From: Hadesarchaea archaeon DG-33
GTDB taxonomy: Archaea; Hadarchaeota; Hadarchaeia; Hadarchaeales; Hadarchaeaceae
Direction of reading: 5' to 3'
Assembly: GCA_001515185.1 (NCBI GenBank)
Contig: LQHI01000049.1
Span: 3,263-27,262 of the forward strand
DNA: 24,000 nt
Shown: one piece after another, positions 3,949 to 18,515 of the stretch
Layout of the letters: each line of letters opens with the position of its first letter
How positions within the stretch are numbered: position 1 is the first letter of the stretch
Notes under the pieces: generated by a model
What the model saw: only the letters and a program-made list of their open reading frames with translations
Told to the model about the DNA's origin: nothing
Databases searched by the model: none
Position numbers and translations under genes: made by a program

Positions 3949-4127
3949 TGTACCTTTCCTCCCTTGTTTTTATCAATCTCTATACTTTCGACCCTAATAA
4001 ATACCTTTTGGGTATACTTTTGGTCGTTATAAATAAATTTTGGTTCTACTTTAGTCTTAAAATAGATTTTGAGTTTACTTTCGGTATTACTTGGGGAGAT
4101 CGAGACGCGAGGACGAAAAGGTTAAAT

Positions 4128-4143
4128 CTTTACTTTTGTAAAG
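4128..4143. promoter_or_regulatory. Perfect palindrome CTTTAC-tttt-GTAAAG just upstream of the Lrp/AsnC gene; candidate autoregulatory operator
   Basis: 6-bp arms are separated by 4 nt, 14-29 nt upstream of the start at 4157/4160. The motif ttacttt also recurs at about 4046, 4073 and 4130. Confidence 0.35.
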
Positions 4144-4156
4144 CTTAATTTGACAT

Positions 4157-4645
4157 TTGATGATTCCCATGCCGAGGGAGGCCGAGTTGACCGAACGCCA
4201 GCTCTCCATCTTACGCAAGCTCTTCAACGAGGGCAAGGTGATGCGGGTTCGTAGGGTCAAGAAGACACAAGTAGCCTTAGCAGAGGAGCTCGGCATAACT
4301 CGACAGGCGCTCAGCAGCCATTTGCGGGAGCTACGCGAACTTGGGCTCTTGAACGCTGGCAGAGGATTTATCGATCTCTCGGAAAAAGCAGGGCACATTC
4401 TCGGGGAGCCTCCAACTCAGGCCTTCGTGTTTGCCAAAATCGAGCCAAAGAAGAGACGTAATGTCTACAAGGAGATAATGTCGCTGGATTTGTTGCAAGC
4501 CTTCCGTGTGACTGGGAATGTGGATTTGATTGTTGTAGTGGATCGGCAAAAATTAGATAAAGTGTTGAAGTCGCTCTCAGGTATTGATGGCGTAAAGGGA
4601 ACCTCCGCTCATCTCGTACTTTCCCCGCTTGTCAAAGGCAAGTAA
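4157..4645 (+). CDS. Lrp/AsnC-family transcriptional regulator (wHTH + RAM-like domain)
   Basis: 162 aa. The HTH is QVALAEELGITRQALSSHLRELRELGLL. The C-terminal part, AFVFAKIEP...LQAFRVTGNVDLIVVV...GIDGVKGT, is typical of the AsnC ligand domain. The TTG at 4157 is followed immediately by an ATG at 4160. Confidence 0.8.
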   Translation: MMIPMPREAELTERQLSILRKLFNEGKVMRVRRVKKTQVALAEELGITRQALSSHLRELRELGLLNAGRGFIDLSEKAGHILGEPPTQAFVFAKIEPKKRRNVYKEIMSLDLLQAFRVTGNVDLIVVVDRQKLDKVLKSLSGIDGVKGTSAHLVLSPLVKGK

Positions 4646-5053
4646 CTAACGCTTTTTAGCAGCTTTTTTCGTGAGTTCCACCATCCGCCGTTCGATTCGG
4701 TCTCGCAGCTCATCGAGGTTCCCCTCGCCGCGAGCTAGCGTGACGTAGTCCAACAGGTCATCCACCATGAGTTCTGCTGTCTCGGCCTCGAGAATTCCCG
4801 CATAGACTGCCAATTCTATGGTGTAGAAAGAGCGCATGACGGCGTCGCGCCCTATCCGCCAGCGCTTCCAAGCCCCAGGCCTTTGCATACGAAGCTTTTG
4901 TGCGAGTTCTTCGAAGGTCGCACCTTCGCTCCAATAGTGCAGAAGCATCGTTTTGAGCGTCTTTTCGTCTAGGTGGGACCTTTCAAGCAATGCTCGTGCA
5001 AGCAGGTTTTCGCGCAGCCATTTTTCGGCCCGGGCAAATTCCTCCCGCGGCAT
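4646..5053 (-). CDS. Hypothetical helical protein with a sigma-70 region-4-like HTH
   Basis: 135 aa. LLHYWSEGATFEELAQKLRMQRPGAWKRWRIGRDAV resembles a region-4 / LuxR-type HTH, and the C-terminal half is charged and helical. An ATG start is preceded by a gggggac SD-like element. Its stop abuts the Lrp stop with 0 nt spacing. Confidence 0.6.
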   Translation of the reverse strand: MPREEFARAEKWLRENLLARALLERSHLDEKTLKTMLLHYWSEGATFEELAQKLRMQRPGAWKRWRIGRDAVMRSFYTIELAVYAGILEAETAELMVDDLLDYVTLARGEGNLDELRDRIERRMVELTKKAAKKR

Positions 5054-5067
5054 TTAGTCCCCCACAT

Positions 5068-5086
5068 GTTTCCATTTTTTGGAAAC
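5068..5086. promoter_or_regulatory. Perfect palindrome GTTTCCA-ttttt-TGGAAAC between a TATA-like box and the 4646..5053 gene start; candidate operator
   Basis: 7-bp arms with a 5-nt spacer. On the minus strand the order is tatttatttt (5087-5096), the palindrome, the ggggg SD, then the ATG at 5053. This is the position archaeal repressors typically occupy. Confidence 0.4.
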
Positions 5087-5114
5087 AAAATAAATACTTA
5101 TTGGAAGGGAGGCA

Positions 5115-5993
5115 TCACATTAGGAAAGAAAATATCCGTTTAAAGAAAGAGCGCTTGTTTGCCCGCTTCACCACGCGCGCGTCAATCGGTGAATCCACCT
5201 CCGCAGCATAGTGAATGGCGTTGCTTGCGGCCTTCAGGGCTGATCTCGGAACACCTTTGCTGAATTTGTAGAGTGATTTAAAGCCATTTGGGGTCAGTAA
5301 ATCTTTATAACAGATACATCCAGCGTTTTTGAGGCGGAGTTCGAGCAATTCTTTGAGATTTTTTTTGTTCATTGGCTTTAGTTTGATTTTTGTTTGGATG
5401 CGGTCGGCCAGCGCCGGTACCTTGGCGAGAAATCGCTCCATCTGCTTGAACGTGCCGTTGATTAGGATTGAGATGTTTGTTATGTCGGCCAGCACGCGCA
5501 GGAATTCGCCAACCTCTAACGCGTCCGCGCCGCTTTCAGGGAGGTCATCGATGATTATCGCTAGACGTTCTTGGTGTTCTTGGGGCCATCGGCGCAGAAA
5601 CTCGAAGAGATTTTCCCGGTTTTTACTCGCATCCATTTCAAGTCCCAGAATTATCGCACGCAGTAGCTCGTCGGACGATTTGTACGCGGCGCCGTGGATG
5701 AAAACAGGTATAATCTGTTTTGAAGGATCGGACTCAGTTAGATTTTCTTCCTTCAATGATGCTACTAAAAACTCGCACACGGTAGTTTTGCCAGTTCCTA
5801 ACGCGCCTGTGAGGGCACCGATTTTGCCTTTGGACAACAACCATTTGAGTTTGCGCAAATCCCTACGTTGAAATGGGGCAAATGCTTCGATGGAGGTCAG
5901 CTCGAGCTTGAATGGGTCCTCCCGCAGCCCCCAGCTCCAGATGTAACTCTCGAAAAGCCGATCGCGGCCGATCTTTTTTTCGAAAGTGGTCAT
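5115..5993 (-). CDS. AAA_22-type (ExeA / TniB / ORC-like) P-loop ATPase
   Basis: 292 aa. It has an N-terminal GLREDPF motif as in ExeA-type ATPases, Walker A GALGTGKTT, Walker B LAIIIDDLPE and an ORC/ExeA-like lid (KLKPMNKKNLKELLELRL...SKGVPRSALKAASNAI). Its ATG overlaps the upstream HNH gene's stop (ATGA, 5990-5993). Confidence 0.75.
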   Translation of the reverse strand: MTTFEKKIGRDRLFESYIWSWGLREDPFKLELTSIEAFAPFQRRDLRKLKWLLSKGKIGALTGALGTGKTTVCEFLVASLKEENLTESDPSKQIIPVFIHGAAYKSSDELLRAIILGLEMDASKNRENLFEFLRRWPQEHQERLAIIIDDLPESGADALEVGEFLRVLADITNISILINGTFKQMERFLAKVPALADRIQTKIKLKPMNKKNLKELLELRLKNAGCICYKDLLTPNGFKSLYKFSKGVPRSALKAASNAIHYAAEVDSPIDARVVKRANKRSFFKRIFSFLM

Positions 5994-6796
5994 CTCGCTA
6001 GCCTCACGTGTATTTCAAACATCCCGTTTTTGCTCACAAGGTAACCACAAGCGGTCATTCGTTCGCAAAATGTTTTCGCGATAGCTTCGGGGCAATGGAC
6101 ACGGGCAGCTAAATCCCCCAGCGTAAAGCTCTTGAGCACGGCGGCAGCTGAGAGTAGGTCCCCAAACAAGGTGCGTTGGGCTAGTCCAGTTGGCTTGAGA
6201 TCGTCCAAGATCTTGTGGCGAGGTAGTTCGGCCACTTCGGGTACGGGGGGTGGCTGAATTTTTATGGTGGGTTTTTCGGGCTTTGGAGCAGGCGCCTCCG
6301 GCTTTATGCTTGGTTTGAAAGCTGGCATTTTACGCACACGTTTATGCACTAGGTTGTAACACTTCTGGCAAAGCGTGACTAGATTATCCGGGTCATTTCG
6401 ACTTGTTCCATTCTTGTGGTGCACCTCCAGTAGCTCCTTTCCCCCGCATTCTTGGCAGGTGTAGTTATCCCTGATGATTACAGCCTTTCTTACCAGCTCC
6501 CAATCATCCCTATGGTAAGAGAAAACATAGTTCAAAAAGGAGGAGAGGGCTTCATCCTTCGGGATTGTGGAGGGAGGAGGTGGGGCAACGGCAGATGGGA
6601 CCCGAAGTAGACGATTTATCTCGCTTTCAGGTATCCTTCTTTGCCCTCCCTGGGGTCGCACAACCTTGATTTTTCCCTGTTTATCCCACAATCTAATCGT
6701 GTTGGGATGTACTCCGAGTATCTTACAAGCCTCTTTCATTTTGTAGAGTTTTTCTTTTTGTTCCACTACCTCACCTTTTCTAACAATAACCAACAT
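5990..6796 (-). CDS. Multidomain HNH endonuclease: N-terminal excisionase/MerR-type HTH + HNH + Pro-rich linker + C-terminal uncharacterised (wHTH-like) domain
   Basis: 268 aa. The HTH_17-like segment is LYKMKEACKILGVHPNTIRLWDKQGKIKVVRPQGGQRRIPESEINRLL. The HNH is DNYTCQECGGKELLEVHHKNGTSRNDPDNLVTLCQKCYNLVH. The linker is PAFKPSIKPEAPAPKPEKPTIKIQPPPVPE. Confidence 0.8.
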   Translation of the reverse strand: MLVIVRKGEVVEQKEKLYKMKEACKILGVHPNTIRLWDKQGKIKVVRPQGGQRRIPESEINRLLRVPSAVAPPPPSTIPKDEALSSFLNYVFSYHRDDWELVRKAVIIRDNYTCQECGGKELLEVHHKNGTSRNDPDNLVTLCQKCYNLVHKRVRKMPAFKPSIKPEAPAPKPEKPTIKIQPPPVPEVAELPRHKILDDLKPTGLAQRTLFGDLLSAAAVLKSFTLGDLAARVHCPEAIAKTFCERMTACGYLVSKNGMFEIHVRLAR

Positions 6797-6904
6797 CTTC
6801 TAACAATACATACATATAAAGTTAACGGGATTTCTTAACAAAAATAACCTAAACTTTACTAAAAATTTAACAAAGGGCTGGAAATTTTTTGTTAGAATTT
6901 GTAA
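6744..6904. repeat. Direct-repeat copy A (~160 bp). It covers the 5' end and promoter of the HNH gene and the divergent promoter of the 7006 gene
   Basis: Aligns by eye at roughly 80% identity with 7704-7866. It contains internal imperfect inverted repeats acatcttctaac (6793-6804, overlapping the HNH ATG) and gttagaatttgt (6891-6902). Confidence 0.8.
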
Positions 6905-7005
6905 GAATATCAAAACTTGGTCATGAAATGAAGTGGAAGGTGATATTTTCTGCGGTCTTTTCAGCACAAGGAACGCGTTGCTAATCACTTGGGCGATAGG
7001 TCAAA

Positions 7006-7666
7006 ATGGCACGAGGATCCCCATACAAAATTCACAACGGATGGTCCGGTATAATGAACAAATTGTCCGTAGCCGAGATTATCGGAGCTGCCTTGGTGGC
7101 TGATCTTGCAGTTTCTTTCTCAACCGGAACGCTTGTTGGTGGCAATGTTTTGGAATATACGAGTCAAAAATTAGGTGGAGCCAACGTTCTGCCAGATAAT
7201 ATACAGTATCAGCGACCTAGTAAACCAGTTTCTCTACAAGAAGCTAAGGAAAAGGGCCCATACTTCCGAATGCCTTCCTACCTCTCTGAGGGAGTAACAG
7301 TAAAGGAGGTAAGAATACTGGAAGTCTTCGGAGGATACTTGGATGTTATAGTTGATCTATCTTCGGAGAATGAAATCGGTTATCTATACCCGGCCTTGGC
7401 CTACTATGGACGAGAAAAAAGTGCAGGAGTTCATAAGCACGGGATACAATGACGTGACTCCAAAAATAATCAGAATAAATGGAAACGTGGGGTTTGCTAT
7501 CGAGTACGGGAATATTGACTCGGAGACTGGGAGAATTATTCCTGCGACCGTAAGCTGGTTTGATGGGATTATTAGTTACGGCTGGTTTGATGAGACTATT
7601 AATTACCGTATTACAGGAGAACTCCCACTAGAATATCTAATGAAAATGGCTAGGTCAATATACTAA
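7006..7666 (+). pseudogene. Membrane-anchored extracytoplasmic protein of unknown function, apparently split by a +1 frameshift at an A6 run (7415-7420)
   Basis: ORFs 7006..7452 (frame 1) and 7352..7666 (frame 2) overlap. The N-terminal TM is LSVAEIIGAALVADLAVSF. Frame 1 reads sensibly up to ...PALAYYGREK, and frame 2 reads sensibly from (K)VQEFISTGYNDVTPKIIRINGN...ELPLEYLMKMARSIY. Skipping one A in gagaaaaaagtg joins them. Alternatively these are two overlapping genes, with the second starting at ATG 7406. Confidence 0.5.
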
Positions 7667-7703
7667 TTCCTTCCCTACTTCTTCCCCGTAACTCGTTTAC
7701 AAC

Positions 7704-7866
7704 TAGTTTTTCGTTTGGTTTGATCGTTACCACCACATTTTTCTGACAATAATCAACAAATTCTAACGATACATAAAAATATAAAGTTAACTAATATTAA
7801 CAAAAAATAACCCAAACTTTGCTAAAAATTAACAAAAAGGCTGGCAATCTTTGTTAGAATTTGTAA
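7704..7866. repeat. Direct-repeat copy B (~160 bp), carrying a degenerate remnant of the HNH gene 5' end
   Basis: Homologous to 6744-6904. The minus strand reads TTG TTG ATT ATT GTC AGA AAA ATG TGG TGG TAA (LLIIVRKMWW*), compared with MLVIVRKGEVV in copy A. There are perfect 12-bp inverted repeats acaaattctaac (7756-7767) and gttagaatttgt (7853-7864). Confidence 0.8.
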
Positions 7867-7881
7867 ATTGTAAAATGCCGT

Positions 7882-8898
7882 CTAGCAAATTCTAGGTGCT
7901 GGGTCCCCGATTGGCGACTCCAGCAGGCGCCGCCCACCGACAATCGTTTCAAGCATAACGTCGCCAGGGTGGTCAGTTATTACTTCCCCTATCTCACACG
8001 CTCCCTTCCCGTACTTGGTTTTTCGTATTGCGGCTAGGACATCATCACAGCGCCCGGATTCAACCCCGATTACGGCTTTTCCCTCGTTCGTTATCTGGAG
8101 CGGATCTATGCCGAGCATCTCGCTCATCGACTTGACTGCGGGCAAGAAGGGGATATCGGCTTCTCTTACGAGAATCCCGACATTTGCCTTCGAGGCCATA
8201 TCGTTGAGTGCGGCTGCTAAGCCTCCGCGGGTTGGGTCTTTCATCGCTGTTATTCCGCCGACCTTTAGTGCGGCTTCGATAGTCTCCCAAATAGGTGCGA
8301 TGTCCGAGCGGAGGTCGACGTCAGCACCAATGCCTTCCCGGTGGGCCATAATCGTGATGCCGTGGTCCCCGATTGTCCCCGTTGTAATGATTTTGTCTCC
8401 TGGTTTGAGTCCGTGGTCGGTCACCAAAGTTTCAGCCACGCCAATTCCCGTACTTGTAAGCACCGCACCGTCGAGCGCGCCCCGCTCCATCACCTTTGTG
8501 TCACCGGTTATCAGCGGGACTTTCGCCTCTCTCGCGGTGGCGTCTATCGATCGACAAATTTTTCGGAAATCTTCGACCAAAAATCCCTCCTCGAGTACGA
8601 CGGCACAGGCCATCGCGAGCGGTCGGGCTCCCATCACCGCGAGGTCGTTGACGGTGCCTGCGATCGCGAGCTTGCCGATGTCGCCCCCCGGGAAGAAAAG
8701 CGGCTTGATGGTGTGGGAATCGGTCGTCAGCACGAGGGTTTTATCACCAATCGATATCGTCGCGCCGTCGTCAAGCTCATCAAGTCCTATTTCTCCCGCG
8801 CGCTTCAGTGAGAGCTCCTTGAGAGCGACGTCCACGATGAGCTTCATCATCGCTTTGCCGCCAGCACCGTGGGCTAGCGAGATTTTTTCGTCCGACAT
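7882..8898 (-). CDS. hypE: [NiFe]-hydrogenase maturation protein HypE (carbamoyl dehydratase)
   Basis: 338 aa with a PurM-like fold (LAHGAGGKAM...DDGA...TTDSH). It ends in the diagnostic C-terminal PRIC. Confidence 0.93.
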   Translation of the reverse strand: MSDEKISLAHGAGGKAMMKLIVDVALKELSLKRAGEIGLDELDDGATISIGDKTLVLTTDSHTIKPLFFPGGDIGKLAIAGTVNDLAVMGARPLAMACAVVLEEGFLVEDFRKICRSIDATAREAKVPLITGDTKVMERGALDGAVLTSTGIGVAETLVTDHGLKPGDKIITTGTIGDHGITIMAHREGIGADVDLRSDIAPIWETIEAALKVGGITAMKDPTRGGLAAALNDMASKANVGILVREADIPFLPAVKSMSEMLGIDPLQITNEGKAVIGVESGRCDDVLAAIRKTKYGKGACEIGEVITDHPGDVMLETIVGGRRLLESPIGDPAPRIC

Positions 8899-9266
8899 TC
8901 TCGCACCTCCTTCTTTTCCAATTTTACATCAACGATTTCAAGTTCCTGACCCGAAGTGAGGGACAGTTCATGCCCGCCGCATTTTGGGCAGGGGATTCCT
9001 AGCTCGGGTTCGGGAATGTGGGTATCGATGGAGCTAGCGTTGCCCACGTATCCACATCTGCATTTGATCGTAATCGGTACTCGGGAGATGTTAAATTTCG
9101 TTGAGTTGAATTCATCCCCCCCAAGTTTATTTAACCATAACTGCAGGGAGTTCGGCTCGTTTATCTCGCCCACCCGCAGGTTCACTTCCAACACCCGCGC
9201 ACCGTGCTCGGTCGCTATCTGACGGACGGTGTTTAACACACGCGTCGCGAGCTCTATTTCATGCAC
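8874..9266 (-). CDS. hypA: [NiFe]-hydrogenase nickel-insertion protein HypA
   Basis: The track ORF (to 9452) is over-extended. The GTG at 9266 gives (M)HEIELATRVLNTV, the canonical HypA N-terminus. The zinc site is CRCGY...CPKCGG. The start overlaps the hypC stop by 8 nt, and the 3' end overlaps hypE by 25 nt. Confidence 0.85.
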   Translation of the reverse strand: MHEIELATRVLNTVRQIATEHGARVLEVNLRVGEINEPNSLQLWLNKLGGDEFNSTKFNISRVPITIKCRCGYVGNASSIDTHIPEPELGIPCPKCGGHELSLTSGQELEIVDVKLEKKEVRECRTKKSR

Positions 9267-9486
9267 CGCTTTCACCCGCAGCGACCTCTTCCCACGCACT
9301 GAGTATTTCTTTTGCTTTTGCCTCGTCGAGAATCTGGATGGCGTACCCAACATGGACGAGTACGTAATCGCCATCGCGTACGTTTCTGAGCAAGTCCAGC
9401 TTAACCTCCCGCCGCGTACCACCGAAGTCAACAGTCGCAATTTGCTCTTCAATTTTCAACACTTTACCTGGAATCGCGAGGCACAT
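9259..9486 (-). CDS. hypC: [NiFe]-hydrogenase maturation chaperone HypC
   Basis: 75 aa with the N-terminal MCLAIPGKV hallmark (essential Cys2) and an OB-fold-like remainder. Confidence 0.9.
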   Translation of the reverse strand: MCLAIPGKVLKIEEQIATVDFGGTRREVKLDLLRNVRDGDYVLVHVGYAIQILDEAKAKEILSAWEEVAAGESGA

Positions 9487-10765: not shown

Positions 10766-11092
10766 TCATTCGGACTTAGCTTGTTGTATATCATAGGTCG
10801 CGAGTTCAAATTCCCTCGTCATGATGATCGCGCGCGTCGGGCAGGCCTCAGCGCACTCACCGCAGAAGACGCACCGTCCAAGCCATATACTCGGTTTTTT
10901 CGTCTCCTTGTTTACGGTTATCGCTCGGACGGGACAGGTTCTGATGCAAAGCCAGCATCTAATGCACCGCTCCTTATCAATGGATGGGCGCCCACGGTAT
11001 CCCTCGGGGGGCTCGACCCGCACGTAGGGGTACTTCACCGTGGCGGGTCTGCGAAAGAGGTTTCGGAGCACCTGAGGGAGTATTCGGGGCAT
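10766..11092 (-). CDS. mbhN: Mbh subunit N, NuoI-like 2x[4Fe-4S] ferredoxin subunit
   Basis: 108 aa with CIRCWLCIRTCP and CVFCGECAEACP. It is the last gene of the operon, in the same position as P. furiosus mbhN. Confidence 0.85.
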   Translation of the reverse strand: MPRILPQVLRNLFRRPATVKYPYVRVEPPEGYRGRPSIDKERCIRCWLCIRTCPVRAITVNKETKKPSIWLGRCVFCGECAEACPTRAIIMTREFELATYDIQQAKSE

Positions 11093-12046
11093 CTAGGGCA
11101 CCACCAGCACGAGCACTAGGCTGATTATAGCGAGAAGCGCAACGTACGTCCAGAAGAATTTAAGAGCTTGGTCGATGCGCAGACGGGCCATGATGTTCCG
11201 GAGAGTCGTCGTCAGCAGCACGATCGCGAGGGTTTTGATGAGGAAATCGACGACGCCCGGGATTTGAATATTGCCAATCAAATAAGCCGTTGGTCCACCG
11301 AAGAAGAGGGCGGCAAGAAAACCAGCGACCACGATTGTTTCAACGTCATAGGCGAGGCGCCAAATCGCTAGCCTCGGCCCTGAGTACTCGGTCAAAGGTC
11401 CCGCCACGATTTCGGTGTGAGCTTCAGGGATGTCAAAGGGCACGCGCAAGAGCTTTCCCTGAGCGGCTATAAGCGCAGCGATTACCGCGGGCAGGAGGCG
11501 CCAGTCGAGGACGAGCCACCCTTGCTGGGCCTGGTAGCCCACGATCGTCGGCAGGCCGAGGGATCCAACCCTAACTACCGCAGCGATGATCGCAAGGATG
11601 AATATGAACTCATAGCTGAATAGCTGGACGACGTAGCGCCCTGCCCCGGCCGCGCCGAATGGGCTTCCCGATGAGTAACCGCCCAGCATCATGCAGATTG
11701 CCGGGATGTTGAGCAGGTAGATAATGACGATCAAATCCGCAACCAGCGTCAGCGCGGGCTGGGCCGAGTTAATTGGCAAGAGAAGCATCACCGTGACCAC
11801 CGCCCCCAGCGCAACCAGCGGCGCGGCGGTGAATACGGGCGACTGTGCGGCAGCAGGGGTAATATCCTCTTTGCTCAGCAGCTTGCCCACATCAAGGAAC
11901 TCCTGCCATATCGGGGGCCCTATGCGGTGCTGCATGTGTGCAGTTACCTTTCGATCGATTCCAATGTAGAGTAGTCCAATGAGAGAAGCAAAGAGGAGCC
12001 CTGGAAAGACGAGGGAGCCCAAGATAAAATTGACTACCTCCATCAT
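11093..12046 (-). CDS. mbhM: Mbh subunit M, NuoH/HycD-like integral membrane subunit
   Basis: About 317 aa and polytopic. It has HRIGPP and RVPFDIPEAHTEIVAGPLTEYSG (the NuoH signature). The ATG at 12046 forms an ATGA overlap with the mbhL stop and follows an aggaggtgg SD. The track start at GTG 12055 is an alternative. Confidence 0.88.
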   Translation of the reverse strand: MMEVVNFILGSLVFPGLLFASLIGLLYIGIDRKVTAHMQHRIGPPIWQEFLDVGKLLSKEDITPAAAQSPVFTAAPLVALGAVVTVMLLLPINSAQPALTLVADLIVIIYLLNIPAICMMLGGYSSGSPFGAAGAGRYVVQLFSYEFIFILAIIAAVVRVGSLGLPTIVGYQAQQGWLVLDWRLLPAVIAALIAAQGKLLRVPFDIPEAHTEIVAGPLTEYSGPRLAIWRLAYDVETIVVAGFLAALFFGGPTAYLIGNIQIPGVVDFLIKTLAIVLLTTTLRNIMARLRIDQALKFFWTYVALLAIISLVLVLVVP

Positions 12047-13194
12047 CCCTTCCACCTCCTGAGTTCTTTAAAGCTCAGGACACGCGTTTTACCGGTGTGT
12101 GAGTCCACTAGGGCGACGCGATCGGTGCAAGCAAAGCAAGGATCTATGCTTGCCAGAACGATTGGGATCTCTGCAACCGTCCCGCCCACGAACATAGGTT
12201 TGAACGATGGGATGTTGGCGTAAGTTGGAGTTCGAACGCGCACGCGCTCAGGTTTATCTGTGCCATTCGAGATTGCGTAATAGAGTAGTTCTCCTCTTGG
12301 GGCCTCTACGCGCCCAATAGCTTCGTTGGGTTCAATTTTTGGAGTAATTTTCGCCCGCAATGGCCCTTTGGGCAGAGCCTTGACCGCTTGGCGGGTTATG
12401 TGAATAGATTCCAAGATTTCGCGAAGCCTAACGATGACCTTGGCCAAAACGTCTCCATCCGGCTCAGTTATCACGTCGAACGAAATTTGGCCATAGGCAT
12501 CATAAGGATCATCTCTCCTTATATCAATGTCGACACCCGAAGCACGGGTGGTTGGGCCCACAGCGCACAGTTTTTTCGCATCATCTTTTGGCAGCACGCC
12601 GATACCCGCACAACGGGCCAAAATCGTGCGATCTGAAGTGCAAATGTTGATATATTGTTCGGTTGCCTTTTCGAGCTTCTCAAGTGTCCTTAGTATCTTG
12701 GGAACATATTCCGGTTTCACGTCGCGCCTTACCCCACCCAAGGTGTTTGATGCTGAGGTTTGACGATTTCCAGAGATCATCTCTTTCAAGTCAAGCACGA
12801 GCTCACGATCGCGCCAGAATAACATGAACAGAGTATCAAAGCCTATCTCGTGGGCAGCTATCCCAGCCCAAAGCATGTGACTATGGATGCGCTCGAGCTC
12901 GCATAGGATGGTTCGAATGAAACGTGCCCGATCAGGAACTTCGATGCCGGCAAGTTGTTCGATTGTTTGACAGTAGGCCGTCGTGTGAGCAACGTTGCAT
13001 ATACCACAGATTCGCTCGGAGAGGTAGATATTGTGCAGGTAGCTTCGCTCCTGCAGCGCGCGCTCGATGCCGCGGTGCACGTAGCCCAAGCGGACATCGA
13101 AGTCAACGATCTCCTCGCCCTTGACCTCGAACCTGAAGTACTCAGGCTCTTTTAGCGCCGGATGCTGAGGACCTATTGGCACGACAAACGTCAT
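12043..13194 (-). CDS. mbhL: Group 4 [NiFe]-hydrogenase large (catalytic) subunit, NuoD-like
   Basis: 383 aa. The N-terminal Ni-Fe ligand motif is RICGICNVAH and the C-terminal one is DPCFACTDR. These are followed by a 24-residue tail (VALVDSHTGKTRVLSFKELRRWKG). Confidence 0.93.
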   Translation of the reverse strand: MTFVVPIGPQHPALKEPEYFRFEVKGEEIVDFDVRLGYVHRGIERALQERSYLHNIYLSERICGICNVAHTTAYCQTIEQLAGIEVPDRARFIRTILCELERIHSHMLWAGIAAHEIGFDTLFMLFWRDRELVLDLKEMISGNRQTSASNTLGGVRRDVKPEYVPKILRTLEKLEKATEQYINICTSDRTILARCAGIGVLPKDDAKKLCAVGPTTRASGVDIDIRRDDPYDAYGQISFDVITEPDGDVLAKVIVRLREILESIHITRQAVKALPKGPLRAKITPKIEPNEAIGRVEAPRGELLYYAISNGTDKPERVRVRTPTYANIPSFKPMFVGGTVAEIPIVLASIDPCFACTDRVALVDSHTGKTRVLSFKELRRWKG

Positions 13195-13616
13195 TTCTTA
13201 GCCTCCTTGCGTAGCGGGTACACCCCTGCAGGCCAATCATCGGCTAGGAATAGTCTGCGTGGGTCGGGATGCCCTTCTACTTTAACGCCTAGCATTTCCA
13301 TGAGGTCACGTTCGTAAAGGATTGCTCCAGGAAAAATGTCGGTGATAGTTTGCACTTTTGGCGTGCTTTTCGGTAGGTTGAGCTTGAGGCTAAGCAAGGC
13401 CGGTCTACAATCGAGGTGATAAACCACGGTGATCGCATCGCCGCGGTCGACACCCGAAATTGTCGACAGGTGTTGCACATCTCGTTGTTTTAAGGCGAGC
13501 ATGGCGGCCCTGCAGCGCTCCTCATCTGTCGTGGCAAACACACGTCGCACATTCTCGATTTTTATCTCATCGACGTACTCCTTGATGACTTCTGCAACTT
13601 CGTTTGCTTTCATCAT
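13191..13616 (-). CDS. mbhK: Mbh subunit K, NuoC-like
   Basis: 141 aa. LSTISGVD....VVYHL...FPGAILYERDLMEMLGVKVEGHPD is the NuoC/HycE-N signature. It has ATGA overlaps at both ends. Confidence 0.88.
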   Translation of the reverse strand: MMKANEVAEVIKEYVDEIKIENVRRVFATTDEERCRAAMLALKQRDVQHLSTISGVDRGDAITVVYHLDCRPALLSLKLNLPKSTPKVQTITDIFPGAILYERDLMEMLGVKVEGHPDPRRLFLADDWPAGVYPLRKEAKK

Positions 13617-14029
13617 TTCAACCTCGCTAAGGCTTTGACGAGTCCATCGATAATCGCCTCAGGTTTGGGTGGACAGCCCGGCACGTAGGCGATGACGGGT
13701 ATATGCTTGTCGAGGGGCCACACTACGTTGTAGCAGTCGTGGAACACGCTGCCAGATGCAGGGCAGGAGCCAATCGCAACGACAGCCTTTGGCTCGGGCA
13801 TCTGCTCGTAAATTCTGATGAGCCTCGGTAAACACTGCTTCGTGATCGGTCCTGTCACGACCAAGATATCGGCATGTCTTGGCGTGCCCTTTGCCAGCAT
13901 CCCGAAGCGCTCGATATCGTAGCGCGGCGTAAGCGCAGCAACGACCTCGATACTGCAACCGTTGCAGCTGCCAGTGTCGAAGTGCAGTAGCCAAGGGGAT
14001 TTTTTCCTAAATAATCGAATTAGTCCCAT
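13613..14029 (-). CDS. mbhJ: Mbh subunit J, NuoB-like hydrogenase small subunit ([4Fe-4S])
   Basis: GSCNGCSIE...GSCPASG...VPGCPP are the NuoB cluster ligands. I place the start at ATG 14029 (MGLIRLFRKKSPW), preceded by a ggtgag SD and 4 nt after the mbhI stop. The track ORF starts at 14062. Confidence 0.88.
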   Translation of the reverse strand: MGLIRLFRKKSPWLLHFDTGSCNGCSIEVVAALTPRYDIERFGMLAKGTPRHADILVVTGPITKQCLPRLIRIYEQMPEPKAVVAIGSCPASGSVFHDCYNVVWPLDKHIPVIAYVPGCPPKPEAIIDGLVKALARLK

Positions 14030-14033
14030 GAGC

Positions 14034-14369
14034 TCACCACAACACCACCGCGATTGCTGCAAGGATGATGATTAGGCCGACCACCACCCAGAAGAGGTAG
14101 GTGCTCAAGATGCCTGTGTGCCCAGGGCGCACATAGCGGTAAAATGGTCCGAAGACGCGGCGGATGGGCGAGAAGAACAGCTCGCTGTCCGCATGGACCT
14201 CTTCAGCCTCAAGCAACTCACCACAGGCATAGGTCTGGACCTTTTGATCGCTGGGTTTTGCCTTAGTGATTCTTCGTCCACCGATTAGAATGAGCCATGT
14301 TACCGCGACGATGAGCAGAAGCGCGGCGGTTGCAATTATGGGACCCCAGAACCCAGGCCCGAATTCCAT
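14034..14369 (-). CDS. mbhI: Mbh subunit I, small two-TM membrane subunit
   Basis: 111 aa with hydrophobic helices at both ends (IIATAALLLIVAVTWLILIGG; LFWVVVGLIIILAAIAVVLW). Size and position match P. furiosus MbhI. Confidence 0.7.
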   Translation of the reverse strand: MEFGPGFWGPIIATAALLLIVAVTWLILIGGRRITKAKPSDQKVQTYACGELLEAEEVHADSELFFSPIRRVFGPFYRYVRPGHTGILSTYLFWVVVGLIIILAAIAVVLW

Positions 14370-14464
14370 TAGCTACCCCCCAGCTTGTTCATGTTCGACC
14401 TCATGCTTTACCACTCCTTTTGACTTAGATTTTTCATGATTATTTTTAAATTTTGATTTATCAC

Positions 14465-15565
14465 CTAACTTTCACTTTTCTCTTTCATCCAATGCGGTAT
14501 TGGCTTCCCATATTTGCCCCAGCGCTTCAACAATTTTTTAGCTGAATTTTTCTTTCTTCTTGAGAGCCGTTTAACGAGTCCAATACCGGGCTTAACTGAG
14601 TTGAGCGATTTTACACCGAGCTTTGGATTATTTCTGGCTACTTTAAAAGCCTCCGCTCCGACCTTGGTGCGCACTAATACCGTGGAGCGACCCAGGGGAG
14701 ATCCTACAGCACCGACGGATATGTCTGCTAGCTCACAGGCGAAATCCAAACAAACCGAACAGGACGTATTAACGCAATTCTTTAGGGCTTTTACATCAAC
14801 TTCCCGCTTCGACCCTTGTTTGGAATAAACGACAAAATTCCCCTTTTTGATGTCAAATTTAGAGACGTTCTCTATAGGGATTTTTAGTTTCCTCTTCACG
14901 AAATTTTTGAGCTTTTCATAATAGAATGATTCCATGCAGAACAACCCGATTACCAACTTCACGGAATCCGCTAGATGATGAAAAGCTCTATCACCGAACT
15001 GCATCCTTCGTACGGCATTGATCTGACAGGGAGTACCCACGATTGCTACTCTCTTCTTCAAGTACAGATCTACGGCGTCCCTCAGCCCTAAGAGGATTGG
15101 ACTTGGAGTATATTTTGTCCCTGCACACTGGGTTATCTCGTCTGGGGTCAGCGCCACTTTCGGCTTCGGCTTCCAAGATTCACCTTCAAATCCCGTCACC
15201 ACTGCCCCATCTATAAAATCCTTTTTTAAGAGCCAAGTAAGCATCGAAGTCACAGCGCCCCCATCTTGGCATTTCTTCCGAATTTTTGGGTCCTTCGTTT
15301 TTACGGAGAAGGCTTTTCCATATACCCCGATGTCTGGGTCGGGAGATGCCTGGCCAGATACATACTCCACAAGCTTAGCAGAGTCACCTGTTTGGGGACA
15401 TTCGTAATAACAGAGGTTACAGTCTTCGCATTTTCCAACGAGCTTAGGTTCGCAGCTAGCGAGATTCAAAGCATTAAATTGGCATGACGCGATACATGCC
15501 CCGCAGCCAGTGCAAAGTCCTGGCTTTATCACTTCTTTATAAAGATGCCCGAAGATTTTATTCAT
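14465..15565 (-). CDS. FrhB/FpoF-family flavo-iron-sulfur protein: N-terminal 2x[4Fe-4S] ferredoxin domain + FrhB_N/FrhB_C + basic C-terminal tail
   Basis: CTGCGACIASC and CEDCNLCYYECP, then QDGGAVTSMLTWLLKKDFIDGAVV, GTKYTPSP, VAIVGTPCQINAVRR, IGLFCMESF, CSVCLDFACELADISVGAVGSPLGRSTVLVRT. The tail is KRLSRRKKNSAKKLLKRWGKYGKPIPHWMKEK. The ATG at 15565 follows a ggtgaggag SD; the track begins at TTG 15577. Confidence 0.85.
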   Translation of the reverse strand: MNKIFGHLYKEVIKPGLCTGCGACIASCQFNALNLASCEPKLVGKCEDCNLCYYECPQTGDSAKLVEYVSGQASPDPDIGVYGKAFSVKTKDPKIRKKCQDGGAVTSMLTWLLKKDFIDGAVVTGFEGESWKPKPKVALTPDEITQCAGTKYTPSPILLGLRDAVDLYLKKRVAIVGTPCQINAVRRMQFGDRAFHHLADSVKLVIGLFCMESFYYEKLKNFVKRKLKIPIENVSKFDIKKGNFVVYSKQGSKREVDVKALKNCVNTSCSVCLDFACELADISVGAVGSPLGRSTVLVRTKVGAEAFKVARNNPKLGVKSLNSVKPGIGLVKRLSRRKKNSAKKLLKRWGKYGKPIPHWMKEKSES

Positions 15566-15611
15566 CTCCTCACCCAATCTTCGTGATTCAAAAGTGTGAG
15601 TTCAAATTCCA

Positions 15612-17108: not shown

Positions 17109-17464
17109 TCCTTCAACCTCCTGATTTTCGATGGGTCAAGCGTGCCGTAGTGGCGGTAGGCGTAGATGGCTAGCGAGAGAGCCAGCGCGAGGATGCAGAT
17201 GTTGATGACGATTGAGGTCAGCACGAGTGCTTGAGGGACAGGGTCGACGGCGTGGGCGGCAAATCCAGGGAGGTCCGAGAACATCTCCCCGCTAACGATT
17301 GGAGCCGTGCCTCCTAAGCGATATCCAATACTTATCAGGAAGAGGTGGATACCATCGGTCAACACGGCGAGGCCGATGATTATTTTGATCAAGTTGCGCT
17401 TGAGTAGCAGGCAGTATATCCCGAGAGCGACTAGGAGCATCGCAAAGATGTAGTTTAGGTCCAA
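17105..17464 (-). CDS. mbhG: Mbh subunit G, MrpC/NuoK-like
   Basis: 119 aa with 3 TM helices and DPVPQALVLTSIVI, typical of MnhC. The TTG start is preceded by a gggggtg SD. Confidence 0.82.
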   Translation of the reverse strand: MDLNYIFAMLLVALGIYCLLLKRNLIKIIIGLAVLTDGIHLFLISIGYRLGGTAPIVSGEMFSDLPGFAAHAVDPVPQALVLTSIVINICILALALSLAIYAYRHYGTLDPSKIRRLKE

Positions 17465-17495
17465 CTTTACACCCCCGTAAACTCCAAGCTGTTAC

Positions 17496-17930
17496 TCATT
17501 CTTTCTCCTCCCTGAAAGCGAACAACATCGCGTAGAAAATCAGGATGATGCCCGCCGTGACTTTTATCCCGACGCCTAGGTAGAGCAGGGGCAGGTTGCC
17601 AGCACTAAATAGCTGCCCGAGATCTCCGAGCGGGAACACGTTTTGGAGGAAGAAGGCACCGAGTAGGAGGCCAAACAACCCTAGGACTACTATCGCTACC
17701 CCCCCGATGCTTTCAAGCACCTCGGCTTGCAGGAGGCCCATCCTTTTCTGTGCCCGTTCAATGCCATAGGCTAGGAGTAGCATCACCACCGAGGCGGCGA
17801 TTATCACTCCTCCCGGGAAGCCCCCTCCGGGAGTCAGGTGGCCGTGAAGCACGATGTAGGCCCCGAAGAGGAAGGTGAACGGGAAGAGGAGCCTCGCGAT
17901 TGTTCGAACGATTACCGTCATTCCCGCCAT
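17496..17930 (-). CDS. mbhF: Mbh subunit F, MrpB-like
   Basis: I place the start at ATG 17930 ([41 protein letters not shown], the MnhB signature), overlapping the mbhE stop (TAATG). The track ORF's 34-codon extension lies inside mbhE. Confidence 0.82.
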   Translation of the reverse strand: MAGMTVIVRTIARLLFPFTFLFGAYIVLHGHLTPGGGFPGGVIIAASVVMLLLAYGIERAQKRMGLLQAEVLESIGGVAIVVLGLFGLLLGAFFLQNVFPLGDLGQLFSAGNLPLLYLGVGIKVTAGIILIFYAMLFAFREEKE

Positions 17931-18481: not shown

Positions 18482-18508
18482 ACCCCTGTAAACTTCACAC
18501 CCCTGTAA
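18475..18508. repeat. Perfect 17-bp tandem duplication (acttcacacccctgtaa x2, plus a partial third, acttc) covering the SD and start codon of mbhD
   Basis: Unit 1 is 18475-18491, unit 2 is 18492-18508, and 5 further matching nt run to 18513. A 19/21-identical 21-mer occurs upstream of mbhG (17463-17483). Confidence 0.9.
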
Positions 18509-18515
18509 ACTTCGC

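What the first reader, a model, noticed from the sequence alone, without database searches (positions are those of the whole stretch)
4646..6796. HTH-HNH nuclease / ExeA-ORC-like AAA ATPase / sigma-r4-like HTH trio: candidate uncharacterised defence or selfish-element module between core genes
Seen in sequence:
- Three co-oriented minus-strand genes sit between an Lrp regulator and the hyp genes.
- They lie in a patch that looks AT-richer than its flanks (25/60 G+C in the line starting 5281).
- Gene 1 has an unusual architecture: excisionase/MerR-type HTH, HNH motif (CQECGG...EVHH...N...DNLVTLCQKCYNLVH), a ~35-aa proline-rich linker, and a ~75-aa C-terminal domain.
- Its stop overlaps the start of gene 2 (ATGA at 5990-5993), implying translational coupling and probably a complex.
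- Gene 2 is an AAA_22/ExeA-type P-loop ATPase (DPF motif, GALGTGKTT, IIIDDLPE, ORC-like lid) with no DNA-binding domain of its own.
- Gene 3 (135 aa) has a region-4-like HTH and its own TATA/palindrome/SD promoter.
- No integrase, transposase, methyltransferase, capsid or terminase is present in the window.

Established knowledge: ATPase + HNH pairs form known anti-phage systems such as Septu PtuA/PtuB, but those use ABC/AAA_15-type ATPases. AAA_22 ATPases act as DNA-target selectors in Tn7/Mu-type transposition (TniB/MuB).

Inference: an NTP-driven sensor or loader (the ATPase) could direct an HTH-tethered HNH nuclease, regulated by the small HTH protein. This could be a new archaeal defence system, or the remnant of an integrated element.
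Basis: partly seen in the sequence, partly recalled or inferred. Interest (0 to 1): 0.75.

Follow-up and report, generated by a model that had tools for sequence, protein, structure and literature searches.

The report
Hadarchaeota-wide HTH-adaptor / AAA+ ATPase operon
The three genes are real, but they are not a mobile defence island: they form a vertically inherited operon of unknown function, found so far only in Hadarchaeota archaea, and the HNH nuclease is an optional part that many lineages have lost.

Summary
All three minus-strand genes, the ATGA overlap and the domain calls are confirmed.

The defence or selfish-island reading is not supported:
- The trio sits at the same locus (hydrogenase/hyp genes | trio | Lrp/Alba/AspRS) in all 33 Hadarchaeota species genomes recovered.
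- Its divergence tracks that of its neighbours.
- No relative was found in the viral, plasmid or phage collections.
- The HNH domain is intact in only 16 of 35 loci. In three it has no catalytic His, in four only one, and in 12 it is absent.

The constant core is a modular partner protein (variable DNA-binding head, Pro-rich linker, conserved winged-helix-like tail) translationally coupled to an ExeA/TnsC/MuB-like AAA+ ATPase.

Two conserved cis-elements were found:
- A 10-bp-phased direct-repeat array spans the gene 1 promoter. Its sequence (GTTA or GACA type) co-varies with the BldC/Xis-like head.
- A TTCC-N7-GGAA palindrome lies between TATA box and start of gene 3. Its outer bases co-vary perfectly with gene 3 residue 58 (Arg/Lys with G, Gln with A).

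Head and repeats are exchanged as a cassette between lineages; the rest is vertical. The physiological output remains unknown.

The parts
5990..6796 (-). Gene 1, the modular partner protein. The annotated ORF is 268 aa; the likely true start is GTG at 6766, giving 258 aa.
   Evidence: ORF and Pfam hits. The upstream ATG is not conserved in close relatives. The AF2 model has three confident domains joined by disordered linkers.
6599..6748 (-). Gene 1 head: a BldC/Xis/MerR-type winged HTH (residues 17-66), class A, with recognition helix 'HPNTIR'.
   Evidence: HTH_17 E 9e-12. The best Foldseek PDB hits are BldC-DNA complexes 6ama and 6amk (36% identity, rmsd 1.5 A, TM about 0.8). The head class co-varies with the upstream repeat type.
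6338..6559 (-). Gene 1 HNH / treble-clef zinc-finger domain (residues 80-153). It is intact here (CxxC...HH...N...CxxC...H) but dispensable in the family.
   Evidence: Pfam HNH 26.8 bits against a cut-off of 21.4. Of 35 loci, 16 are intact, 3 have no His, 4 have one His and 12 lack the domain.
6230..6337 (-). Pro-rich disordered linker (residues 154-189). It is the likely recombination zone between the head cassette and the tail.
   Evidence: pLDDT is below 50 for residues 155-186. Head identity follows head class, while tail identity follows gene 2.
5993..6229 (-). Gene 1 C-terminal winged-helix-like domain (residues 190-268), the constant partner of the ATPase.
   Evidence: Nearly invariant columns fall here. 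The fold is helix-helix-helix-helix-strand-strand, with Foldseek hits to CAP, IclR, MarR and PCI winged helices. There is no Pfam or PDB sequence hit. The domain is retained next to the ATPase even in relatives with another head or none.
5990..5993 (-). ATGA stop/start overlap between gene 1 and gene 2 (translational coupling).
   Evidence: Seen in the window. A 4-bp overlap is conserved in 33 of 34 loci.
5115..5993 (-). Gene 2, an ExeA-like AAA+ ATPase (AAA_22). Walker A is at 5784-5807 and Walker B at 5544-5558.
   Evidence: AAA_22 46.8 bits. Walker A (G63, G66, G68, K69, T70) and Walker B (D149, D150) residues are invariant, as are E153, N179, R198 and R250, which I read as the catalytic Glu, sensor-1, Arg-finger and sensor-2 positions by their place in the sequence. 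Weak PDB sequence hits go to TnsC (7rzy) and Cdc6 (7jgr). phrog_296, annotated 'DNA transposition protein', hits at 1.9e-11. Only 12 representatives reach E<=1e-30 among 1.84 billion proteins.
5054..5114 (-). Gene 3 promoter and operator: TATA-like box 5087-5096, perfect palindrome GTTTCC-A6T-GGAAAC at 5068-5086, and the SD site at 5058-5063.
   Evidence: The palindrome is present in every locus that includes the g2-g3 spacer, as GTTTCC/GGAAAC or ACTTCC/GGAAGT (two are imperfect). It occurs once in the window. It co-varies with gene 3 residue 58.
4646..5053 (-). Gene 3, an orphan all-alpha HTH protein (135 aa). The probable recognition helix starts at the invariant G60-A61-W62-K63; the codon of R58 is at 4880-4882.
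   Evidence: 117 homologues; every one that carries an organism name but one is from Hadarchaeota (the exception is labelled Methanobacteriota), and none has a Pfam hit. AF2 pLDDT is 83.7, with seven helices. No significant fold match in PDB or BFVD. R/K58 goes with the G-type operator and Q58 with the A-type, 35 of 35.
6780..6895 (-). Gene 1 promoter with an array of T(T/A)GTTA(A/G) direct repeats flanking the TATA box (6813-6820). The SD site is at 6768-6774.
   Evidence: 5 of the window's 14 TGTTAR sites fall in these 116 bp. Related loci carry 3-9 repeats per 200 bp against about 0.2 background, and 10 bp is the commonest spacing. Most clusters of three or more repeats lie within about 150 bp upstream of gene 1; the window's clade has extra ones.
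7797..7857 (.). Second small cluster of the same repeat, on the far side of the AT-rich variable insert just downstream of hypE.
   Evidence: The same arrangement is seen in L002-L006, and repeat clusters separate the duplicated insert genes in L004.

Best explanation
What it is: a lineage-specific, vertically inherited operon of Hadarchaeota built around an AAA+ ATPase and a modular partner protein. It has two self-regulated transcription units.

Unit 1 (genes 1 and 2):
- Gene 1 has a BldC/Xis-type winged-HTH head.
- I infer that the head polymerises head-to-tail on a 10-bp-phased array of direct repeats laid across its own TATA box. This would autoregulate the unit and concentrate the protein at this one locus.
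- A flexible Pro-rich linker carries a conserved winged-helix-like tail. The tail is the constant partner of the translationally coupled ATPase, gene 2.
- Gene 2 resembles ExeA, TnsC, MuB and ORC, with all catalytic motifs invariant.
- By analogy with TniQ/TnsD-TnsC, MuA-MuB and IstA-IstB, the tail would recruit or nucleate ATP-dependent oligomerisation of gene 2 on DNA.
- The HNH domain between head and tail is an accessory module. It is intact in this window, so nicking or cleavage near the bound site is possible here. It has been repeatedly inactivated or deleted elsewhere.

Unit 2 (gene 3):
- Gene 3 is an orphan dimeric HTH protein. I infer that it represses its own promoter through a TTCC-N7-GGAA palindrome placed between the TATA box and the transcription start.

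Shown by computation: conservation, synteny, gene coupling, domain loss, both cis-elements, and both protein-DNA co-variations.

Inferred: actual DNA binding, the tail-ATPase contact, and ATPase assembly on DNA.

Unknown: the physiological output.
For: Distribution and inheritance:
- 33 Hadarchaeota species genomes were recovered and no other phylum.
- The trio is contiguous and flanked by hyp/PHP genes on one side and mostly Alba/AspRS on the other.
- Gene 2 identity correlates with its neighbours, rho 0.88-0.95.
- Only 12 representatives reach E<=1e-30 among 1.84 billion proteins.

Coupling:
- The 4-bp overlap is present in 33 of 34 loci.

Core versus accessory:
- Invariant columns lie only in the head and the tail.
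- HNH loss and decay are widespread.
- Relatives outside the trio keep tail plus ATPase while the head is absent, different, or replaced by a zinc ribbon on the ATPase.

Head and repeats:
- BldC is the best structural match. BldC is known to bind direct repeats head-to-tail (PMC5859096).
- The repeats are 10-bp phased and flank the TATA box.
- The 'HPNT' helix goes with GTTA repeats and the 'C/S-x-KTIQ' helix with GACA repeats in every locus.
- Two loci examined after the rule had been stated fit it.

Gene 3 and its palindrome:
- There is one copy per locus, always at the gene 3 promoter.
- Residue 58 R/K goes with G and Q with A in 35 of 35 loci, with several independent transitions on the gene 2 tree.

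ATPase:
- Walker A, Walker B and the residues I read as sensor-1, Arg-finger and sensor-2 are invariant.
Against: - No binding, ATPase or nuclease activity has been measured, and no complex model could be run.
- The tail-ATPase contact rests only on gene coupling and co-occurrence.
- The co-variation of the palindrome arms is equally expected for an RNA hairpin. Its position next to the TATA box, the AT-rich spacer and the residue-58 match argue for a DNA operator.
- Absence from Hadarchaeota genomes could not be counted, so 'phylum-wide' means 'in every species recovered'. The scan used exact peptide patterns, so the count is a lower bound.
- Two more distant relatives sit in contexts that resemble a mobile element or defence island (L043, L044). 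A defence or mobile-element role for the wider family is therefore not excluded.
- The HNH domain is strongly conserved where present, so in this window's lineage it may matter more than 'accessory' suggests.
Confidence: 0.5

Rival explanations
1. Anti-virus or anti-plasmid defence system. The AAA+ ATPase senses or loads, and the HTH-tethered HNH nuclease is the effector, regulated by gene 3.
For: - The HNH motif is intact in this window and in 16 of 35 loci.
- PADLOC gives domain-level hits to mad1, ZorE and a weak mad8.
- A distant relative (L043) lies next to an MmeI-type restriction-modification gene and a SNF2/PLD helicase.
- Cassette exchange of the DNA-binding head could reflect an arms race.
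Against: - The locus is fixed and inheritance is vertical across the phylum. Defence systems are normally patchy.
- The proposed effector is dead or missing in more than a third of lineages, while the ATPase and tail remain under selection.
- No hit goes beyond shared domains.
- Clusters of the head's target repeats were found almost only around its own promoter within +/-10 kb.
Confidence: 0.12
2. Domesticated or decaying remnant of a mobile element, for example a transposon target-selector pair (HTH adaptor plus a TnsC/MuB/IstB-like ATPase) with a homing-type HNH. It was captured in the Hadarchaeota ancestor and is now retained for a host function or as an addiction module. This is mainly an account of origin and is compatible with the best explanation.
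For: - The nearest outside relatives of the head are the N-terminal HTH domains of IS607-family transposases.
- Gene 2 matches phrog_296, annotated 'DNA transposition protein' (my reading: MuB-like), and TnsC weakly.
- An ATGA-coupled gene pair is, from memory and not checked here, also typical of IS21 istA/istB.
- HNH decay is what a former selfish nuclease would show.
- Relatives L043 and L044 sit among unannotated genes typical of mobile elements.
- An archaeal Tn7-like element uses an HTH_17 protein as its predicted att-site reader (bioRxiv 10.1101/2025.07.27.667033).
Against: - There is no transposase, integrase, TniQ or terminal repeat in the window or in any of the 35 loci.
- No relative was found in viral, plasmid or phage collections.
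- Purifying selection and synteny persist over phylum-level divergence.
Confidence: 0.2
3. Single-locus chromosome machine: a centromere-like partition site or a captured secondary replication origin. The repeat array is the cis site, gene 1 the site-binding adaptor and gene 2 the NTPase.
For: - Iterated, helically phased repeats flank the adaptor's own promoter, followed by an NTPase gene. From memory, this is the layout of plasmid partition cassettes such as parC/ParR/ParM.
- Repeated switching of specificity is only easy if there is one cis target.
- In the window's clade, the AT-rich region (38% G+C) is bracketed by repeat clusters.
- RacA, a protein that binds specific chromosomal DNA sites, is among the fold matches.
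Against: - To my knowledge no AAA+ ATPase is known as a partition motor.
- In most lineages the whole upstream region is only 90-130 bp, with no room for an unwinding element.
- The AT-rich stretch in the window carries a variable gene and is absent in other clades.
- Relatives L042 and L045 lack the sequence-specific head.
- No whole-genome skew or origin mapping could be done.
Confidence: 0.1
4. Dedicated transcriptional regulator of the adjacent hydrogenase-maturation and PHP genes.
For: Adjacency to hypE and/or the PHP gene is kept even where local gene order differs. In several lineages the repeat array lies in the divergent PHP/gene 1 intergenic region.
Against: - In the window neither the repeat-array clusters nor the palindrome lie upstream of another hyp or hydrogenase gene. 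A three-repeat cluster inside hypA occurs in four close relatives.
- Specificity switching would break a regulon.
- An AAA+ ATPase with an optional nuclease is an unusual design for a simple regulator.
- Synteny in small, slowly rearranging genomes is weak evidence.
Confidence: 0.06

Closest known systems
BldC (Streptomyces) and Xis-type MerR-like winged-HTH architectural proteins
   Same: The gene 1 head has BldC as its best fold match (6ama, 6amk; 36% identity, rmsd 1.5 A). It is preceded by arrays of short direct repeats at about one helical turn, the substrate BldC binds as head-to-tail multimers (PMC5859096).
   Different: BldC is a stand-alone 68-residue bacterial regulator with a regulon. 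Here the domain is the N-terminal module of a multi-domain archaeal protein coupled to an ATPase. The NCBIfam BldC score is 34.9 against a cut-off of 77. Repeat clusters were seen almost only around its own promoter.
AAA+ ATPase plus DNA-site adaptor pairs of transposons (TnsC-TniQ/TnsD, MuB-MuA, IstB-IstA)
   Same: Gene 2 is an AAA_22-type ATPase with weak sequence matches to TnsC and to phrog_296, a PHROG family annotated 'DNA transposition protein' (my reading: MuB-like). It is paired with an upstream, translationally coupled DNA-binding partner. An archaeal Tn7-like element is predicted to use an HTH_17 protein as site reader.
   Different: There is no transposase, TniQ domain or element ends. 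The locus is chromosomal, fixed and vertically inherited. The partner's tail domain has no known family.
ExeA/GspA family (type II secretion-associated AAA_22 ATPases)
   Same: These are the closest sequence relatives of gene 2 outside its own family (up to 29% identity). By my reading they share the N-terminal 'GL..DPF' motif, the Walker motifs and the 'G(V/I)PR' sensor-2 motif.
   Different: Bacterial ExeA proteins carry membrane and peptidoglycan-binding (SPOR) parts and pair with GspB downstream. Gene 2 is a bare ATPase with an upstream DNA-binding partner, in an archaeon.
Septu (PtuA/PtuB) and Zorya type II ZorE: ATPase plus HNH defence systems
   Same: An ATPase gene lies next to an HNH-containing protein. 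The HNH domain resembles ZorE-type HNH at domain level, E about 1e-9.
   Different: There is no PtuA/PtuB or ZorA/B/C/D match. The ATPase is AAA_22, not ABC/AAA_15. The HNH domain is dispensable in the family, and the distribution is vertical, not patchy.
Plasmid partition cassettes with promoter-embedded iterons (e.g. R1 parC-ParR-ParM; pNOB8 AspA-ParB-ParA), recalled from memory
   Same: Phased direct repeats flank the operon's own promoter. The adaptor has an N-terminal DNA-binding domain and a C-terminal NTPase-facing part. There are three genes.
   Different: The NTPase class (AAA+) is not one known for partition. The locus is chromosomal and phylum-wide. There is no homology to any Par protein. 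This is an analogy of layout only.

Membership tests
HNH endonuclease (PF01844) | beta-beta-alpha-metal fold with a catalytic His, an Asn and, in this subtype, two CxxC zinc-binding pairs | tested here: met
   The window's gene 1 scores 26.8 bits against a cut-off of 21.4 and carries C114-x2-C117, H126-H127, N139, C144-x2-C147 and H152. Across the family the feature is not conserved: 3 of 35 loci have no His, 4 have one and 12 lack the domain.
Septu (PtuA/PtuB) | PtuA ABC/AAA_15-type ATPase paired with a PtuB HNH nuclease | tested here: not met
   The PADLOC scan returned no Ptu model for any of the three proteins at E<=1. The ATPase is AAA_22.
Zorya type II | ZorA/ZorB motor proteins together with ZorE | tested here: not met
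   There is only a domain-level HNH match to ZorE (35 bits; NCBIfam 26.6 against a cut-off of 600). No ZorA/ZorB-like genes are in the window.
MADS (mad1-mad8) | Multi-gene system that includes a methyltransferase and several mad proteins | tested here: not met
   Only the HTH matches mad1 (E 8e-13), and the ATPase matches mad8 weakly (4.4e-5). No methyltransferase or other mad gene was found among the window ORFs scanned against Pfam.
ExeA/GspA | AAA_22 ATPase domain with the N-terminal 'GL..PF' motif | tested here: met
   AAA_22 scores 46.8 bits against a cut-off of 27. W21-G22-L23...D26-P27-F28 and the Walker motifs are present and conserved.
ExeA/GspA | C-terminal membrane and peptidoglycan-binding region, and a GspB partner | tested here: not met
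   Gene 2 ends at 292 aa with no such region. The neighbours are gene 1 and gene 3. The bacterial relative L038 has T2SSB downstream.
Tn7-like / Mu-like transposition module (TnsC/TniB/MuB) | Co-located DDE transposase (TnsB/TniA/MuA), TniQ/TnsD and element ends | tested here: not met
   None was found among the window ORFs scanned against Pfam, and no extra gene separates the trio from its conserved flanks in the 35 related loci. The TnsC match is E about 2e-3 only.
Orc1/Cdc6 initiators | AAA+ module fused to a C-terminal winged helix, scoring above the family threshold | tested here: not met
   TIGR02928 scores 16.5 bits against a cut-off of 181. Gene 2 has no winged helix. PDB Cdc6 gives E 2.3e-3.
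BldC family | MerR-like winged HTH without a coiled coil, binding direct repeats head-to-tail | tested here: inconclusive
   The fold and the presence of phased direct repeats are met. The NCBIfam BldC score of 34.9 is below the cut-off of 77. The binding mode was not measured.
IS607-family serine recombinase | N-terminal MerR-like HTH followed by a resolvase catalytic domain (PF00239) | tested here: not met
   Only the HTH is shared: 44-73% identity over 19-33% of the query. There is no resolvase domain in gene 1.

The most novel reading that the evidence does not exclude
The trio is a previously unrecognised kind of single-locus DNA machine specific to Hadarchaeota. In this reading an AAA+ ATPase is assembled at one chromosomal site by a BldC-like filament-forming adaptor. 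It would serve as a centromere-like, origin-like or locus-marking device. Its site-recognition cassette (head plus repeats, with or without a nuclease) is exchanged between lineages much as plasmid incompatibility or phage immunity regions are.
Probability: 0.15. Interest if true: 0.8.

Novelty: new variant of a known kind. Interest (0 to 1): 0.55.

Why it matters
- Hadarchaeota are uncultured subsurface archaea with small genomes. A three-gene operon retained at one locus across the phylum, with two protein families absent from Pfam (gene 3 and the gene 1 tail), marks an unknown and probably important DNA-related function.
- The two protein-DNA co-variations give precise, cheap in-vitro tests. 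One is head class against repeat type. The other is residue 58 Arg/Lys or Gln against G or A in the operator.
- The locus also offers a natural example of a DNA-binding head and its binding sites being swapped as a cassette inside an otherwise vertical operon.
- For genome annotation, it warns that 'ATPase + HNH between core genes' is not enough to call a defence system.

Tried and rejected
- The defence libraries gave only shared-domain hits.
- PHROGs gave generic HNH and HTH hits, plus a match of gene 2 to phrog_296, annotated 'DNA transposition protein'.
- Scans of IMG/VR with the gene 2 and gene 3 profiles found nothing. tblastn of gene 2 against PLSDB and INPHARED found nothing.
- Foldseek of the gene 3 model found nothing below E=1 against PDB or BFVD. 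The top PDB rows are MarR-family proteins at E 2-8, which is only a hint.
- The gene 1 tail profile has no significant Pfam or PDB sequence hit. It shows no detectable homology to the winged helix fused to an ATPase in L043.
- Rfam found nothing in 4000-8000, and there are no tRNA genes in the window.
- Taxonomy of the divergent loci L042 and L043 could not be obtained, because their protein clusters carry no names.
- Literature searches found no description of this family.
- The idea of an AT-rich foreign patch was rejected on composition.
- The idea of a hyp regulon was rejected because in the window both motifs cluster only around the trio's own promoters and the adjacent insert.
- One look-up failed for technical reasons.

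Full report
**1. Observation**

The three minus-strand ORFs exist as described:
- gene 1 (g1), 5990-6796, 268 aa
- gene 2 (g2), 5115-5993, 292 aa
- gene 3 (g3), 4646-5053, 135 aa

They lie between an Lrp/AsnC gene and hypE. Domain findings:
- g1 has HTH_17/MerR (residues 17-66) and HNH (114-153, above Pfam's cut-off).
- g2 is AAA_22 (46.8 bits).
- g3 matches nothing in Pfam, PHROGs, PADLOC or NCBIfam.

The ATGA overlap at 5990-5993 is real.

The 'AT-rich patch' is not real. The trio is 49.8% G+C against 51.8% for the window. The AT-rich stretch is the neighbouring gap 6797-7881, at 38.3%.

The ATG at 6796 is replaced by CTG in the closest relatives. The likely start is GTG at 6766, behind a GGTGAGG ribosome-binding (Shine-Dalgarno, SD) site.

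**2. Distribution**

Homologue searches gave these results:
- g2 has about 80 homologues at 49-95% identity, all about 290 aa. Every named source is Hadarchaeota. Similarity then drops to 25-29% identity with bacterial ExeA-like proteins.
- g3 has 117 homologues. Every one that carries an organism name is from Hadarchaeota, apart from one labelled Methanobacteriota.
- A scan of one genome per GTDB species found the gene in 33 Hadarchaeota species and in no other phylum.
- An exhaustive profile search of 1.84 billion representatives found only 12 at E<=1e-30, above a plateau of generic ExeA-like proteins.

In every locus long enough, g1-g2-g3 are contiguous. The usual order is: membrane-bound hydrogenase, HycI, PHP, HypA, HypE, then the trio, then (Lrp), Alba, KH, AspRS. 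Deep branches show HypE and PHP, or PHP alone, in front of the trio.

Identity of g2 to the window correlates with that of its neighbours:

| Neighbour | Spearman rho |
|---|---|
| HypE | 0.93 |
| PHP | 0.92 |
| AspRS | 0.88 |
| g3 | 0.95 |

No relative was found in IMG/VR, PLSDB or INPHARED. This is the signature of a vertically inherited core block, not of a defence island or an integrated element.

**3. The HNH domain is dispensable**

In an alignment of 23 g1 homologues, invariant columns lie only in the N-terminal HTH and the C-terminal domain. The state of the HNH region among 35 loci is as follows:

| State of the HNH region | Loci |
|---|---|
| CxxC...HH...CxxC intact | 16 |
| Zinc finger kept, no catalytic His (ALKEKD, VYRKEE, VQEKTP) | 3 |
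| Zinc finger kept, one His | 4 |
| Whole region absent (172-214 aa proteins) | 12 |

Where the domain is present it is well conserved, so it may be active in the window's own lineage.

**4. The constant core**

The AF2 model of g1 has three confident domains joined by disordered linkers. The C-terminal domain (190-268) is winged-helix-like. Its fold neighbours are CAP, IclR, MarR and PCI winged helices. It has no Pfam or PDB sequence match.

The g1/g2 4-bp overlap is kept in 33 of 34 loci.

More distant relatives of g2 keep an upstream partner with the same tail, but with different heads:
- L042: no head at all. The partner is 134 aa (Pro-rich region plus tail), and the ATPase carries a double zinc ribbon.
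- L045: an unrelated HTH head, and again a zinc-ribbon ATPase.
- L043 and L044: an HTH_17 head.

None of these has g3. L043 sits among unannotated genes next to an MmeI-type restriction-modification gene and a helicase. L044 follows large unannotated genes.

The universal unit is therefore [variable head]-[Pro linker]-[tail] plus an ExeA-like ATPase. The trio with g3, and its synteny, are specific to Hadarchaeota.

In g2, the Walker A and Walker B residues are invariant. So are E153, N179, R198 and R250, which I read as the catalytic Glu, sensor-1, Arg-finger and sensor-2 positions. The best PDB sequence matches, all weak, include TnsC and Cdc6.

**5. Cis-element 1: repeat array at the g1 promoter**

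Upstream of g1 there is an array of short direct repeats flanking a TATA box. Ten base pairs is the commonest spacing: 32 intervals in one class, and 23 of 37 in the other.

There are two classes, and they match the recognition helix of the g1 head without exception:
- 'HPNT(I/L)R' goes with T(T/A)GTTA(A/G). There are 3-9 repeats per 200 bp against about 0.2 background.
- '(C/S)xKTIQ' goes with (T)(G)GACA(W)A, typically at -69 and -59, then the TATA box, then -31, -21 and -11.

Two loci fetched after the rule had been formulated obeyed it. They have an HPNT head but lack an intact HNH, and both carry GTTA repeats.

The best solved-structure match of the head is BldC bound to DNA, followed by Xis and RacA. 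BldC binds direct repeats as cooperative head-to-tail multimers (PMC5859096).

Most clusters of three or more repeats lie within about 150 bp upstream of g1. In the window's clade there are extra clusters beyond a variable insert (window 7797-7857), and four close relatives have a three-repeat cluster inside hypA.

**6. Modular evolution**

On a neighbour-joining tree of g2, the two head classes are interleaved. Pairwise identities show that the tail follows g2, while the head follows its class:

| Pair (head class) | g2 | Tail | Head |
|---|---|---|---|
| L008 (B) vs L010 (A) | 81% | 85% | 62% |
| L008 (B) vs L014 (B) | 66% | 62% | 90% |
| L009 (B) vs L040 (A) | 87% | 87% | 62% |

So the head, together with its repeats and with or without the HNH domain, has been exchanged between lineages by recombination in the linker. 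The rest of the operon is vertical. I infer that such switching is only easy if the head has essentially one target, its own promoter region.

**7. Cis-element 2: palindrome at the g3 promoter**

The g2-g3 spacer holds a TATA-like box followed directly by a palindrome. This is GTTTCC-N7-GGAAAC or ACTTCC-N7-GGAAGT, and it is followed by an SD site.

Every locus that includes the g2-g3 spacer has exactly one such palindrome, always at this position; two copies have a single mismatch. It occurs once in the 24-kb window.

Residue 58 of g3 sits just before the invariant G60-A61-W62-K63 motif, which starts the predicted recognition helix. It co-varies perfectly with the outer base pairs of the palindrome:
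- Arg (Lys in two loci) goes with the G-type arms, in 23 of 23 loci.
- Gln goes with the A-type arms, in 12 of 12 loci.

There are several independent transitions on the g2 tree. The best g2 column reaches only 0.94.

Arg with guanine and Gln with adenine are the textbook contacts. I conclude that g3 most likely binds this operator as a dimer and represses its own promoter.

An RNA hairpin would also explain the symmetric changes in the arms. It would not explain the link to residue 58 or the position next to the TATA box.

The g3 model is all-alpha with pLDDT 83.7. It has no significant fold match. 9 of 34 members hit Sigma70_r4 weakly.

**8. Mechanism proposed**

There are two self-regulated units.
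- In the first, the g1 head coats its own promoter. The tethered tails recruit or nucleate the AAA+ ATPase on DNA, as transposon adaptors do for TnsC, MuB or IstB. The HNH domain, where intact, could nick or cut nearby DNA.
- In the second, g3 sets its own level. Its link to g1 and g2 is unknown.

The physiological output is not established. The rivals I considered are defence (0.12), a domesticated mobile-element module (0.2, mainly an account of origin), a centromere- or origin-like site (0.1) and a hyp regulator (0.06).

**9. Comparison and novelty**

The trio fails the membership tests for Septu, Zorya, MADS, Tn7/Mu modules, Orc1/Cdc6 and IS607. It shares only the ATPase domain with ExeA/GspA and only the fold with BldC.

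I found no description of the family in the literature.

It is best called a new variant of a known kind: an AAA+ ATPase with a sequence-specific DNA adaptor. It includes two protein families absent from Pfam.

Interest is moderate. The defence hypothesis that motivated the high first-stage score is not supported. However, the phylum-wide conservation, the two clean protein-DNA co-variations and the cassette exchange make it a well-defined, testable unknown.

Noticed in passing
window 6797-7881: This is an AT-rich (38% G+C) variable insert between hypE and gene 1. Its two overlapping plus-strand ORFs (7006-7452 and 7352-7666) correspond to one intact 195-aa protein with a hydrophobic N-terminal stretch in L005, so the window copy looks frameshifted. 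L004 carries two tandem 276-280-aa copies, each bracketed by GTTA-repeat clusters. L002 and L006 have a 1.2-kb gap without this gene. Other clades have only 90-130 bp here.
   Followed up: partly
window 6764-6796: The annotated ATG start of gene 1 (6796) is not conserved; it is CTG in L002, L003, L005 and L006. It lies about where the transcript should start. GTG at 6766, behind GGTGAGG, is the likely start. Two GTTA repeats fall inside the 'extra' ten codons.
   Followed up: yes
window 8874-9452: This 192-aa ORF is an over-extension. The HypA domain covers only residues 64-177. Relatives have separate HypC (75 aa) and HypA (124-127 aa) genes at this position (L002, L040).
   Followed up: partly
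window 10766-19632: A large membrane-bound hydrogenase / Mrp-antiporter-like cluster: NiFe large subunit, complex I 30-kDa and 20-kDa-like subunits, NADHdh, MnhB/E/G and proton-antiporter subunits. It includes a FrhB/FdhB-like gene (14465-15577) of lower G+C (45.6%) that is found in only some relatives.
   Followed up: no
window 19963-21942: A 659-aa protein with only a sub-threshold Kelch-motif hit. L001 has a protein of more than 3,400 aa with Kelch, alpha-amylase and CBM20 domains a few kilobases from the trio.
   Followed up: no
L024 and L027 (both from MAG CSMAG_2688): One MAG carries two different copies of the locus (gene 2 is 61% and 72% identical to the window), each with its own hyp genes. 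This looks like a mixed bin, not a duplication.
   Followed up: no
L035 10001-10878; L019 8013-9016: Gene 2 in L035 and hypE in L019 each align in two overlapping pieces in different frames. These are frameshifts or assembly errors in those MAGs.
   Followed up: no
L043 3252-12861: A distant relative of the gene 1/gene 2 pair lies after a run of unannotated co-oriented genes. Its neighbours are an Hjc/Mrr-like nuclease, a 363-aa ExeA-like ATPase fused to a C-terminal winged helix, an unannotated 141-aa protein, an MmeI-type restriction-modification gene and a SNF2/PLD helicase. This looks like an integrated element or a defence island.
   Followed up: partly
L028 2-68: Upstream of gene 1 the GTTA repeats form a regular tandem array with a 20-bp unit (ATTGTTAGGAATGGTTAAGG, at least three and a half copies, cut off by the contig end).
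   Followed up: no
L002 4749-4798 (also L003, L004, L006): A cluster of three GTTA-type motifs lies inside the hypA coding region of the window's close relatives. It may be chance.
   Followed up: no
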